From contig JAHJJA010000037.1 of assembly GCA_018822885.1 (NCBI GenBank), positions 1 to 36,043 on the forward strand: a stretch of DNA of 36,043 nt, read 5' to 3'. This stretch comes from Candidatus Omnitrophota bacterium (lineage in GTDB: Bacteria; Omnitrophota; Gorgyraeia; Gygaellales; Profunditerraquicolaceae). A program made the translations under genes and the position numbers. Shown here one piece after another: positions 11,285-36,043 of this stretch; positions within the stretch are counted from its first letter, which is position 1, and every line of letters starts with the position of its first letter. Below the pieces are notes generated by a model. It was given only the letters and a program-made list of their open reading frames with translations. It did no database searches and was not told the origin of the DNA.

Positions 11285-11357
11285 GCCGGCGTAGCTCAGT
11301 TGGTAGAGCAATTGTTTTGTAAACAATGGGTCGGGGGTTCGATTCCTCTCGCCGGCT
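11285..11357 (+). tRNA. tRNA-Thr (TGT)
   Basis: GCCGGCG/CGCCGGC acceptor, ATTGT-TTTGTAA-ACAAT anticodon arm, GGTTCGATTCC. Confidence 0.95.
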
Positions 11358-11439: not shown

Positions 11440-11468
11440 CTTGTGCCTTGTGTTTTGTAACTTGTGAC
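11440..11468. repeat. Degenerate heptamer tandem repeat (CTTGTGN; GTCACAA family on the minus strand)
   Basis: CTTGTGC CTTGTGT TTTGTAA CTTGTGA. Confidence 0.65.
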
Positions 11469-11491
11469 AAATATACATTTTGATATTTAAT

Positions 11492-11774
11492 GGGCAGGTA
11501 CCCAAGTGGCCAAAGGGGGCAGACTGTGTAAACGCAGCGTCCCGCTGAAAAGCAGGATGGAAAAGTAGGTGAATTCAGGGGATCCCTTGGCAAGTTTTGT
11601 CGAGGGGAATCCTGAGCCAAGCCCTGAGTCATTTCAGGGAAGGTGCAGAGACTAAGCGCCTACCGCCTAAAGCTAAAAGCTATGGTGATGAGATAGTCCA
11701 AGCCTCAAGGTAACTTGAGGGCACTTGAAATCTGTTGCACTAGTGCTTCAGAGGTTCGAATCCTCTCCTGCCCA
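11492..11774 (+). tRNA. tRNA-Tyr (GTA), intron-containing; exons 11492-11527 and 11728-11774
   Basis: Joined exons give an 83-nt cloverleaf: GGGCAGG/CCTGCCC+A, anticodon arm GCAGA-CTGT^AAA-TCTGT, long variable arm, AGAGG-TTCGAAT-CCTCT; conserved Thr(TGT)-Tyr-Gly(TCC) order. Confidence 0.93.
11528..11727 (+). ncRNA. Group I self-splicing intron (IC3-like, 200 nt, no ORF) in the tRNA-Tyr anticodon
   Basis: Core elements P AATTCAGGGGA, Q AATCCTGAGC, R GCAGAGACTA, S GATAGTCCA; P1 with U.G at the 5' splice site; terminal G; P2-P9 all pair. Confidence 0.93.
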
Positions 11775-11825: not shown

Positions 11826-12083
11826 ATGCCTAAGAAAAAGATCCCATGGTTGGCAGCTGTCTTAAATATACTTGTTAACGGACTGGGTTATATTTATATC
11901 GGCAAGAGAAAGGCATTCGGTTTATTGCTGATGCTGGCGCAGATCTCTACCTGCGTGTGGGTGTTAAAGTCTCAACCTGCCTCTGTTTATTTATTCAGAG
12001 ACTTTTGGATCTCTCTTTCCGGAATCTTGTATTCTGCTGCGTTTGCATTCGACGCCTACAAGTTAGCAAAAGAAACTAACTAG
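11826..12083 (+). CDS. Small membrane protein (85 aa) with TM2-like 'AAVLN..GLGYIYIG' motif
   Basis: ATG 11826 behind AGAGG; three hydrophobic segments; the longer ORF-track start overlaps the tRNA and is rejected. Confidence 0.7.
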   Translation: MPKKKIPWLAAVLNILVNGLGYIYIGKRKAFGLLLMLAQISTCVWVLKSQPASVYLFRDFWISLSGILYSAAFAFDAYKLAKETN

Positions 12084-12094
12084 ACCAGGGCTCT

Positions 12095-12166
12095 GCGGGA
12101 GTAGTTCAGTGGTAGAACACTTGCCTTCCAAGCAAGTCGTCGCGGGTTCGAACCCCGTCTCCCGCT
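12095..12166 (+). tRNA. tRNA-Gly (TCC)
   Basis: GCGGGAG/CTCCCGC acceptor, CTTGC-CTTCCAA-GCAAG, GGTTCGAACCC. Confidence 0.95.

Positions 12167-34828: not shown

Positions 34829-36043
<1,215 letters not shown>

What the first reader, a model, noticed from the sequence alone, without database searches (positions are those of the whole stretch)
11492..11774. Group I intron splitting the anticodon (35/36) of tRNA-Tyr(GUA)
Seen: removing 11528-11727 yields a complete 83-nt tRNA-Tyr (CU-GU^A-AA loop), and it sits in the conserved Thr-Tyr-Gly order. The 200-nt insert folds as a full group I ribozyme. P1: exon CUGU pairs with GCAG (11534-37), placing U11527.G11534 at the splice site. P2 is capped by GAAA; P3 GUAGGUG/CGCCUAC; P4 UUCAGG/CCUGAG; P5 CCCUUGGC/GUCGAGGG; P6a CCCUGA/UCAGGG; P7 GAGACU/AGUCC (G-binding site); P8; P9 CCUCAAG-GUAA-CUUGAGG; P9.0 AAG/CUU; terminal G11727. 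Known: classical bacterial tRNA group I introns are in Leu(UAA), fMet(CAU), Ile(CAU) and Arg(CCU). I recall a recent report of 35/36 insertions in Asn/Asp tRNAs of Patescibacteria but cannot verify it here, and I know of no characterised example in tRNA-Tyr or in this lineage. Inference: if this is the only tRNA-Tyr gene, splicing is essential, and standard tRNA scanners would likely miss the gene.
Basis: partly seen in the sequence, partly recalled or inferred. Interest (0 to 1): 0.92.

Follow-up and report, generated by a model that had tools for sequence, protein, structure and literature searches.

The report
Self-splicing intron inside only tRNA-Tyr gene
The only tyrosine tRNA gene found in this small uncultured bacterium's genome assembly is split inside its anticodon by a 200-base group I ribozyme intron, a real but not unprecedented kind of element that standard tRNA finders overlook.

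Summary
Confirmed. Window 11528-11727 is a group I intron (Rfam RF00028, 87.2 bits, E 4e-21). It lies between anticodon bases 35 and 36 of tRNA-Tyr(GUA), whose exons are 11492-11527 and 11728-11774. Default ARAGORN and the Rfam tRNA model miss the gene. ARAGORN with introns allowed finds it with exactly these borders.

No other tRNA-Tyr is in the 90.8%-complete assembly. Among 101 related genomes I mapped the same intron at the same site in 20. Of those 20, 19 lack an uninterrupted tRNA-Tyr anticodon arm; 62 of the other 81 have one. On 21 homologues, 95.5% of cells pair and 28 of 64 pairs change on both sides. So the ribozyme is under selection and splicing is very probably essential.

By synteny the host is an Omnitrophota genome. 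Its tRNA-Asn and its initiator tRNA are also interrupted. Tyr 35/36 introns also occur in Patescibacteria and in gut Clostridia genomes.

A 2020 preprint lists 21 tRNA intron settings, but its table is an image, so I could not check whether this setting is already recorded. I rate it a new member of a known kind, of moderate interest.

The parts
11492..11527 (+). tRNA-Tyr(GUA) 5' exon, 36 nt: acceptor 5' strand, D arm, anticodon stem 5' strand and loop bases C32 U33 G34 U35
   Evidence: ARAGORN with introns allowed, and on the joined exons. Uninterrupted tRNA-Tyr genes in 11 related loci match the joined exons at 67-82 of 83 positions.
11528..11727 (+). Group I intron, 200 nt, no open reading frame for a homing endonuclease
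   Evidence: RF00028 87.2 bits, E 4.1e-21. Borders from ARAGORN and from my border enumeration. Covariation on 21 homologues.
11728..11774 (+). tRNA-Tyr 3' exon, 47 nt: A36 A37 A38, anticodon stem 3' strand, long variable arm, T arm, acceptor 3' strand and discriminator A. CCA is not encoded.
11524..11537 (+). P1: exon CUGU (11524-27) pairs with the internal guide GCAG (11534-37); U11527.G11534 is the wobble pair at the 5' splice site
   Evidence: All 4 pairs are invariant in 21 of 21 homologues.
11540..11557 (+). P2 hairpin (11540-46 with 11551-57; one C.A mismatch in this copy) capped by the GAAA tetraloop 11547-50
   Evidence: 7 of 7 pairs change on both sides among homologues. The loop type covaries with P8.
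11565..11571 (+). P3 5' strand GUAGGUG
   Evidence: Pairs with 11657-63. 2 of 7 pairs have compensatory changes and 100% of cells pair.
11575..11615 (+). P4 (11575-80 with 11610-15), the A-rich J4/5 junction, and the P5 hairpin (11584-91 with 11599-606)
   Evidence: P4 pairs in 100% of cells and is nearly invariant. 5 of 8 P5 pairs change on both sides.
11616..11644 (+). P6 (11616-17 with 11643-44) and the P6a hairpin (11622-27 with 11634-39)
   Evidence: 4 of 4 proximal P6a pairs change on both sides. The two distal pairs are poorly aligned by MAFFT (35.7% of cells paired).
11648..11654 (+). P7 5' strand G-A(bulge)-GACUA; by homology this region holds the guanosine-binding site
   Evidence: Pairs with 11694-99 as a pseudoknot with P3. 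6 of 6 pairs are invariant in 21 of 21 homologues. Which pair binds guanosine was not tested.
11657..11663 (+). P3 3' strand CGCCUAC
11664..11687 (+). P8 hairpin with the internal loop CCUAAAG / CUAUGG, which resembles a GAAA-tetraloop receptor
   Evidence: 3 of 4 proximal pairs change on both sides. The internal loop is present in all 20 copies with a GAAA L2 and absent in all 5 copies with a GUAA or GAGA L2.
11694..11699 (+). P7 3' strand UAGUCC, preceded by the conserved J8/7 junction
   Evidence: Invariant in 21 of 21 homologues.
11700..11727 (+). P9.0 (11700-02 with 11724-26), P9 hairpin (11703-09 with 11714-20) with the GUAA loop 11710-13, and the terminal G11727
   Evidence: 4 of 7 P9 pairs change on both sides. 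P9.0 pairs in the 18 sequences that MAFFT aligned correctly. CUUG precedes the 3' splice site in 21 of 21 homologues.
11285..11357 (+). tRNA-Thr(UGU), upstream neighbour
12095..12166 (+). tRNA-Gly(UCC), downstream neighbour

Best explanation
Window 11528-11727 is a functional, compact group I intron, similar to the Azoarcus tRNA intron. It interrupts the only tRNA-Tyr(GUA) gene found in an Omnitrophota genome, between anticodon positions 35 and 36.

Inferred mechanism, from the established chemistry of group I introns:
1. The pre-tRNA folds so that loop bases C32-U35 (CUGU) pair with the intron's guide GCAG to form P1, with U11527.G11534 marking the 5' splice site.
2. A free guanosine bound at P7 attacks that site.
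3. The terminal G11727, positioned by P9.0, then takes the same pocket, and the freed 3' OH of U35 attacks the 3' splice site.
4. This joins U35 to A36 and yields an 83-nt tRNA-Tyr plus a free 200-nt intron.

The anticodon stem lies outside P1 and can stay formed, holding the exons together. An L2 GAAA loop docking into a receptor in P8 probably braces the fold, and possibly the L9 GUAA loop does so too.

The intron has no endonuclease gene. It belongs to one intron lineage that occupies this site patchily across Omnitrophota.

What is shown: the sequence, the borders, the conserved and covarying structure, and the distribution. What is inferred: catalysis, dependence on guanosine, and whether splicing needs no protein.
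For: (1) RF00028 scores 87.2 bits, E 4.1e-21.

(2) The borders give a canonical tRNA-Tyr with loop CUGUAAA, and I found no alternative border pair.

(3) On 21 homologous introns, 95.5% of cells pair against 32-48% when slid. 28 of 64 pairs change on both sides. 0 of 500 shuffles reach the observed values. P1, P7 and most of P4 are invariant.

(4) There is covariation between distant parts. All 20 copies with an L2 GAAA loop have the CCUAAA.../...A(A/U)GG internal loop in P8. All 5 copies with a GUAA or GAGA loop have a plain helix there.

(5) No other tRNA-Tyr is among the 39 uninterrupted tRNAs of the assembly, and the uninterrupted anticodon-arm motif occurs 0 times in G000.

(6) Among 101 related genomes the intron-bearing gene was mapped in 20. 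Of these, 19 lack the uninterrupted motif, while 62 of the other 81 have it.

(7) Uninterrupted genes sit in the same Thr-Tyr-Gly setting and match the joined exons at up to 82 of 83 positions.

(8) The 25 Omnitrophota Tyr introns form one clade with SH-aLRT support 97.

(9) The closest characterised system, the 205-nt Azoarcus tRNA-Ile intron, self-splices in vitro (PMC13168695, passages read).
Against: There is no direct evidence of splicing for this gene. RNA-library contigs showed only an unspliced form from a relative about 89% identical, and a joined form that probably comes from an intron-free relative.

P1 has only 4 base pairs and I see no P10.

P2 carries a C.A mismatch in this copy.

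The assembly is 90.8% complete, so a second tRNA-Tyr in the missing part cannot be excluded.

The minimum-free-energy fold recovers P2, P4, P5, P6a, P9 and P9.0, but not P1, P3 or P6, and only half of P8. This is usual for long-range and pseudoknotted helices.
Confidence: 0.88

Rival explanations
1. The intron is real and is removed in the cell, but it is not autonomous: efficient splicing needs a host protein such as an RNA chaperone or a tRNA-binding protein.
For: P1 has only 4 pairs, I see no P10, and this copy has a C.A mismatch in P2. From general knowledge, many group I introns depend on proteins in vivo.
Against: The core is complete, and the tetraloop-receptor bracing covaries. The similarly sized Azoarcus intron self-splices in vitro. 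No intron-encoded or adjacent candidate protein was seen.
Confidence: 0.08
2. The interrupted gene is a dead copy. The working tRNA-Tyr lies in the roughly 9% of the genome that was not assembled, and the intron is decaying.
For: The assembly is 90.8% complete in 168 contigs. One relative, G066, has both an interrupted and an uninterrupted gene.
Against: 19 of 20 intron-bearing genomes lack the uninterrupted motif, while 62 of the 81 others have it. The exons match intact orthologues at up to 82 of 83 positions. The catalytic core is invariant and the stems show compensatory changes, which decay would not preserve.
Confidence: 0.03
3. The insertion is an assembly artefact, a chimeric join of a tRNA gene with an intron from another organism in the metagenome.
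For: The source is a metagenome-assembled genome.
Against: The same architecture with the same junctions was assembled independently in 20 of 101 related genomes and in 4 named Omnitrophota records. The internal guide is complementary to the flanking exon. Two DNA runs hold 0.99 and 0.95 of the sampled words of the stretch, though they may be the source sample.
Confidence: 0.01

Closest known systems
[quoted passage not shown]
   Same: It is a compact intron of about 200 nt in a bacterial tRNA anticodon loop, with no endonuclease gene and no large peripheral domains (PMC13168695, passages read). From recall, not from any call: it belongs to subgroup IC3 and its L2 and L9 tetraloops dock into P8 and P5.
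   Different: The host tRNA is Tyr rather than Ile2. The insertion site is 35/36, inside the anticodon, rather than 36/37 ('5Ug' in Williams's scheme). The guide sequence is GCAG pairing with CUGU.
The four classical bacterial tRNA group I intron settings: Leu(UAA) 34/35, fMet 33/34, Ile2 and Arg(CCU) 36/37
   Same: Same kind of element and the same general place, with U(-1) and a terminal G; these four are all filed as IC3 (Williams 2020 preprint, whole text read).
   Different: Loop position 4 (35/36) and the Tyr isotype are not among these four.
Williams 2020 bioRxiv catalogue (10.1101/2020.01.27.920355): 21 settings among 5292 interrupted tRNA genes
   Same: It was built the same way (Rfam RF00028 plus ARAGORN with introns) on 80,413 bacterial genomes that included metagenome bins. 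It may already list this setting as 'Tyr.4Ug'.
   Different: Table 1 and Fig. 3 are images and supplements are closed, so I could not see whether Tyr is listed. The preprint gives no structure, covariation or lineage analysis for any new setting in the text I read.
tRNA-Asn(GUU) group I intron of the same genome (G000:C56) and its relatives
   Same: Same insertion site (after CUGU, 35/36), same guide core GCAG, same overall architecture.
   Different: It is a separate intron clade. In most of the copies I mapped its P1 has 6 pairs (GGCUGU with GCAGCU or GCAGCC). It is 243 nt long in G000.
tRNA-Tyr 35/36 introns in Patescibacteria and in gut or rumen 'Clostridia bacterium' genomes
   Same: Same host tRNA, same site, GCAG guide.
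   Different: They are distinct intron lineages with weaker RF00028 scores: 47.1 and 34.6 bits, and 39.2 bits found only when a 341-base stretch was searched alone.

Membership tests
Group I intron (Rfam RF00028) | Match to the family covariance model at or above the gathering score | tested here: met
   87.2 bits against a gathering score of 50, E 4.1e-21; the same result in the whole-genome search.
Group I intron (Rfam RF00028) | 5' splice site after a U that forms a U.G wobble pair in P1 with an internal guide sequence | tested here: met
   U11527.G11534. The CUGU/GCAG pairing is invariant in 21 of 21 homologues.
Group I intron (Rfam RF00028) | Terminal G (omega G) at the 3' splice site | tested here: met
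   G11727. All 21 related Tyr introns end in CUUG directly before AAAUCU.
Group I intron (Rfam RF00028) | Conserved core P3-P9, including the P3/P7 pseudoknot, supported by covariation | tested here: met
   64 pairs in 13 helices, 95.5% of cells paired, 28 pairs with changes on both sides, 0 of 500 shuffles as high. P7 itself never varies, so it is supported by conservation only.
Group I intron (Rfam RF00028) | Guanosine-dependent two-step transesterification (self-splicing) | not testable with these tools
   This needs in vitro transcription with GTP and Mg2+. The RNA-library contigs were uninformative.
Subgroup IC3 (the bacterial tRNA intron type) | Compact architecture with P2, no P5abc extension, and GNRA loops on P2 and P9 that dock into helical receptors (features recalled, not taken from a call) | tested here: inconclusive
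   The architecture fits and the L2-P8 covariation fits. No subgroup-specific model and no Azoarcus or Anabaena sequence was available for a formal assignment.
Bacterial tRNA-Tyr | Cloverleaf with anticodon GUA, a 7-nt loop with U33 and a purine at 37, and a long variable arm | tested here: met
   ARAGORN on the joined exons gives tRNA-Tyr(gta) with loop CUGUAAA and a long variable arm. The exons match uninterrupted orthologues at up to 82 of 83 positions.
Mobile group I intron with a homing endonuclease | An endonuclease open reading frame inside the intron | tested here: not met
   The intron is 200 nt. The 25 Omnitrophota Tyr introns are 190-282 nt, too short for such a gene.

The most novel reading that the evidence does not exclude
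In this organism three sole-copy essential tRNAs each need a guanosine-dependent ribozyme reaction before they can work: the initiator tRNA, tRNA-Tyr and tRNA-Asn. The Tyr and Asn introns both target the C32-U33-G34-U35 element shared by the tRNAs with GUN anticodons, which (from recall) is also what the queuosine-inserting enzyme Tgt recognises.

The bold reading is that these introns are not merely tolerated parasites. They may be retained as a gate that ties the supply of mature tRNA, and hence translation, to the guanosine-nucleotide pool. Alternatively they may keep the anticodon-loop sequence hidden from enzymes or integrases that target tRNA genes until the tRNA matures.
Probability: 0.1. 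Interest if true: 0.75.

Novelty: new member of a known kind. Interest (0 to 1): 0.45.

Why it matters
(1) Annotation. Default tRNA finders report no tRNA-Tyr for this genome, and also no tRNA-Asn and no initiator tRNA. That could be misread as gene loss, recoding or dependence on a host in a small-genome lineage. 67 of the 101 genomes searched (G000 and 100 relatives) carry at least one group I intron match.

(2) Ribozyme biology. The locus offers a 200-nt, naturally varied ribozyme family with 25 distinct sequences. It includes a clean natural swap between a GAAA loop with its receptor and a GUAA loop with a plain helix. The insertion site, 35/36 inside the anticodon, has no experimentally characterised example that I could find.

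(3) Evolution. One intron lineage per tRNA site, spread patchily over a phylum without any endonuclease gene, is a useful case for asking how such introns persist and move. The same site is occupied by other lineages in Patescibacteria and Clostridia.

Tried and rejected
Expression. The look-up of sequencing runs found RNA runs holding only 0.05-0.07 of the sampled words. Read laying on four RNA-library contig sets at 85% likeness gave three kinds of record:
- A 338-nt contig covering 11509-11774 unspliced, with 29 differences. It comes from a relative and could be precursor RNA or carried-over DNA.
- Fragments of the intron.
- A 192-nt contig in which 12 nt of the exon 1 end are joined to exon 2, followed by an 11-nt spacer and tRNA-Gly. 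This spacing is close to that of intron-free relatives, which have an 8-nt spacer (L096 and L097), so it is probably an intron-free gene.
This is no evidence either way on splicing.

Genome-wide pattern scan. My pattern also matched uninterrupted tRNA-Ser genes: 85 of 121 matches. L118 and L219 looked like hits by spacing but have no tRNA-like 5' exon. Sixteen further matches were left unassigned.

Rfam searches on the Clostridia loci. At the gathering score and at E <= 0.01 on 63.6 kb, RF00028 was not found in the Clostridia loci searched (L108 and L190). It appeared at 39.2 bits when a 341-base stretch of L108 was searched alone.

Literature. Nine searches found no paper that names a group I intron in a bacterial tRNA-Tyr or tRNA-Asn.
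- PMC5733544-49-nt inserts 'group I introns'; I rejected this as not relevant (passages read).
- The Williams preprint may list the setting, but in an image.

Relatives survey. 23 of the 115 RF00028 matches, the weakest ones, were not fetched, so intron counts are lower bounds. 26 of the 92 loci got no ARAGORN call. By motif, most of these are Asn-type or CAU-type and none is Tyr.

Minimum-free-energy folding recovers only the local hairpins.

The intron tree hints at incongruence with host families, but it is poorly resolved (32 of 73 inner branches are open). I do not claim horizontal transfer.

Full report
OBSERVATION. The window holds tRNA-Thr(UGU) at 11285-11357 and tRNA-Gly(UCC) at 12095-12166. 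Default ARAGORN finds no tRNA between them, and neither does the Rfam tRNA model. Rfam RF00028 (group I intron) matches 11447-11720 at 87.2 bits, against a gathering score of 50, with E 4.1e-21. The 5' part of that match is misaligned into the spacer. The core from P3 onward is aligned with high posterior probability.

That places the intron at 11528-11727. On the exons joined in a script it calls a normal tRNA-Tyr with loop CUGUAAA and a long variable arm. An enumeration of all U(-1)/G(omega) border pairs that restore a 5-bp anticodon stem and a 7-nt loop gave no alternative. The intron therefore lies between positions 35 and 36, inside the anticodon.

STRUCTURE. I mapped the helices onto the sequence:
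- P1: 11524-27 with 11534-37, with the U11527.G11534 wobble.
- P2: 11540-46 with 11551-57, GAAA loop, one C.A mismatch.
- P3: 11565-71 with 11657-63.
- P4: 11575-80 with 11610-15.
- P5: 11584-91 with 11599-606.
- P6: 11616-17 with 11643-44.
- P6a: 11622-27 with 11634-39.
- P7: 11648 and 11650-54 with 11694-99, with a bulged A, forming a pseudoknot with P3.
- P8: 11664-67 and 11671-74 with 11678-81 and 11684-87.
- P9: 11703-09 with 11714-20, GUAA loop.
- P9.0: 11700-02 with 11724-26.
- Terminal G: 11727.

COVARIATION. On a MAFFT alignment of 21 homologous Tyr introns from 20 genomes, 95.5% of 1302 cells form standard pairs, against 32-48% when the 3' partners are slid by 1-3 columns. 28 of 64 pairs show changes on both sides, in 116 cells. 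0 of 500 column shuffles reach the observed values on any measure.
- P2 (7 of 7 pairs), P5 (5 of 8), proximal P6a (4 of 4), proximal P8 (3 of 4), P9 (4 of 7) and P3 (2 of 7) covary.
- P1 and P7 never vary and P4 hardly varies, so they are supported by conservation only.
- Weak spots: the two distal P6a pairs (35.7% paired) fall in a region that MAFFT aligns badly. Three sequences with an extra hairpin before P9.0 are misaligned there.
- The sequences are related, so the shuffle control overstates significance. The slide control does not have that weakness.

A TERTIARY CONTACT. Among 25 distinct Omnitrophota Tyr introns, all 20 with a GAAA loop on P2 have an asymmetric internal loop in P8 (CCUAAA.../...A(A/U)GG). 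15 fit my strict pattern and 5 are near variants. All 5 with GUAA (4 copies) or GAGA (1 copy) have a plain helix there. From recall, this matches the known preference of GAAA for the 11-nt receptor motif and suggests L2-P8 docking as in the Azoarcus intron. L9 is GUAA in 24 copies and GCAA in 1.

IS IT THE ONLY tRNA-Tyr? The window is contig C22 of a 1.75-Mb assembly in 168 contigs, 90.8% complete. Default ARAGORN finds 39 tRNAs, none of them Tyr. With introns allowed, this is the only Tyr. The uninterrupted anticodon-arm motif occurs 0 times in the assembly.

RELATIVES. RF00028 matches 67 of 101 genomes (G000 plus 100 relatives), and 58 of 101 above the gathering score. I examined the 92 best of the 115 matches.
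- Twenty-one loci in 20 genomes, from three families, hold tRNA-Tyr interrupted at exactly this site. All have GACUGU before the intron, a GCAG guide, and CUUG directly before AAAUCU.
- Of those 20 genomes, 19 lack the uninterrupted motif; G066 has both forms.
- 62 of the other 81 genomes have the uninterrupted motif and 19 have neither.
- In 11 of the 12 loci fetched by the uninterrupted motif, ARAGORN calls an uninterrupted tRNA-Tyr. Those with a neighbouring tRNA in the locus have Thr and/or Gly beside it. They match the window's joined exons at 67-82 of 83 positions.
This near-exclusive pattern, together with an invariant core and compensatory stem changes, is what one expects if the interrupted gene is the working gene and the intron is spliced out.

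WIDER SPREAD. In an even sample of the phylum, the intron's 3' junction motif occurs in 18 of 401 genomes, G000 included. These span at least 13 families and a second class.

HOST. The flanks are ordinary chromosomal genes: cdaA, pdxJ, acpS and an NAD(P)HX dehydratase upstream; a response regulator, a ThyA-like protein, a PilZ protein and gpsA downstream. The window is syntenic with contigs titled 'Candidatus Omnitrophota bacterium', at 55-87% amino-acid identity for the main collinear tblastx hits. I infer that the host belongs to that phylum.

OTHER INTRONS IN THE SAME GENOME.
- G000:C56 holds tRNA-Asn(GUU) split at the same 35/36 site by a 243-nt intron (RF00028 67.9 bits). ARAGORN miscalls it as Arg(acg).
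- G000:C32 holds a CAU tRNA with the C1xA72 mismatch typical of initiators, split at 33/34 by a 258-nt intron (58 bits).
- The two uninterrupted CAU tRNAs have paired ends, so they are not initiators.
- In relatives I also mapped introns in Lys(UUU) and Arg(UCU).
- In a tree of 76 cleanly mapped introns, introns group by tRNA site and not by genome. The 25 Omnitrophota Tyr introns form one clade (SH-aLRT 97). That tree rests on 197 MAFFT columns, comes from a quick search, and has long branches.

BEYOND THE PHYLUM. Even so it returned interrupted tRNA-Tyr genes from 4 Omnitrophota records, 2 Patescibacteria records (Yanofskybacteria and Moraniibacteriota) and 11 gut or rumen 'Clostridia bacterium' records, plus one more at a contig edge.
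- RF00028 scores: 93.6 bits for L169; 47.1 and 34.6 bits for the two Patescibacteria; 39.2 bits for a Clostridia copy, seen only when a short stretch was searched alone.
- All of them use a GCAG guide.
- In the tree they are lineages separate from the Omnitrophota Tyr clade.

MECHANISM. The mechanism is inferred from the established chemistry of group I introns.
- P1 presents U35 as a U.G wobble.
- An external guanosine bound at P7 cleaves the 5' splice site.
- The terminal G11727, set by P9.0, replaces it, and the exons are ligated to restore G34-U35-A36.
- P1 uses only loop bases, so the anticodon stem can persist and hold the 3' exon. I see no P10.
- The intron encodes no protein.
- Whether splicing is fully autonomous is open. 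The 205-nt Azoarcus tRNA-Ile intron, the closest characterised relative in kind, self-splices in vitro (PMC13168695, passages read).

WHAT IS KNOWN.
- The Williams 2020 preprint (whole text read) names four classical settings (Leu.3Ug, Arg.5Ug, fMet.2Ug, Ile2.5Ug). It reports 17 more from 80,413 genomes, with metagenome bins of unnamed phyla among the richest sources. The list is in an image, and supplements are closed.
- The tRNAscan-SE 2.0 paper mentions only fMet and Ile2 (passages read).
- A 2021 paper notes that some tRNAs in complete CPR genomes have group I introns and are hard to detect, without naming isotypes (passages read).
- Nine full-text searches found no description of a bacterial tRNA-Tyr group I intron.
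So the kind is well known, the site and isotype are outside the classical four, and they may already be catalogued without description.

EXPRESSION. Only RNA-library contigs were available, and they did not settle whether splicing occurs (details under Tried and rejected).

VERDICT. This is a genuine, conserved group I intron, very probably active, in the only tRNA-Tyr gene found in the assembly of an Omnitrophota genome. I rate it a new member of a known kind and of moderate interest. Its value lies in annotation, in a natural set of ribozyme variants, and in a lineage in which several essential tRNAs depend on self-splicing.

Noticed in passing
G000:C56:12444-12761 (locus L002), outside the window: tRNA-Asn(GUU) is split at the same 35/36 site (CUGU|...G|UAACC) by a 243-nt group I intron (RF00028 67.9 bits). 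ARAGORN miscalls it as tRNA-Arg(acg). No other tRNA-Asn is in the assembly.
   Followed up: partly
G000:C32:21784-22118 (locus L003), outside the window: An initiator-type tRNA(CAU), with the C1xA72 mismatch, is split at 33/34 by a 258-nt group I intron (58 bits). The two uninterrupted CAU tRNAs of the genome have paired ends, so this is the only initiator-like gene found.
   Followed up: partly
100 related genomes plus G000: The lineage is rich in group I introns. 67 of 101 genomes have an RF00028 match, with up to 6 matches in one genome (G049). I mapped hosts Tyr, Asn, CAU tRNAs, Lys(UUU) and Arg(UCU). In the tree each host site has its own intron clade, except Asn, which falls in two places.
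   Followed up: partly
L108, L110, L124, L133, L146, L150, L164, L190, L192, L199, L202 (named 'Clostridia bacterium' genomes from animal and human gut): tRNA-Tyr is interrupted at 35/36 by 215-232-nt introns that fall below the RF00028 gathering score. L108 scores 39.2 bits when a 341-base stretch is searched alone, and neither L108 nor L190 (the two searched) is found in larger searches. Routine Rfam annotation would miss them.
   Followed up: partly
Window 11547-11550 with 11664-11687, and homologues: The L2 tetraloop type covaries perfectly with the form of P8. A GAAA loop goes with a receptor-like internal loop (20 of 20 copies); a GUAA or GAGA loop goes with a plain helix (5 of 5 copies).
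   Followed up: yes
L009, L013, L020 (G087, G003, G050); L207, L214: Some Tyr introns carry extra hairpins. Three have about 45 nt inserted between P9 and P9.0. Two named Omnitrophota records have about 45 nt inserted between P7 and the 3' strand of P3.
   Followed up: no
Window 11826-12083 (+): An 85-aa hydrophobic open reading frame lies between tRNA-Tyr and tRNA-Gly. It has no Pfam match. tblastx found no counterpart to it in the four named Omnitrophota loci compared; in the two of them where both genes were placed by Rfam or blastn, Tyr and Gly lie closer together.
   Followed up: partly
Window 34829-36043 (+): A 16S rRNA gene starts here and runs off the end of the window. Its alignment to the Rfam model shows 36 bases where the model has 2, near model position 80.
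   Followed up: no
G066 and G024 (relatives): G066 has both an interrupted and an uninterrupted tRNA-Tyr. G024 has two different interrupted copies (222 nt and 206 nt) on two contigs. These may be true duplicates or strain mixtures.
   Followed up: no
G000:C52:4896-5657 and G000:C55:1-243: A tgt (queuine tRNA-ribosyltransferase, PF01702) gene is present in two pieces on two contigs, one piece starting at a contig end. The Tyr and Asn introns sit right after the U33-G34-U35 element that, from recall, this enzyme recognises.
   Followed up: no
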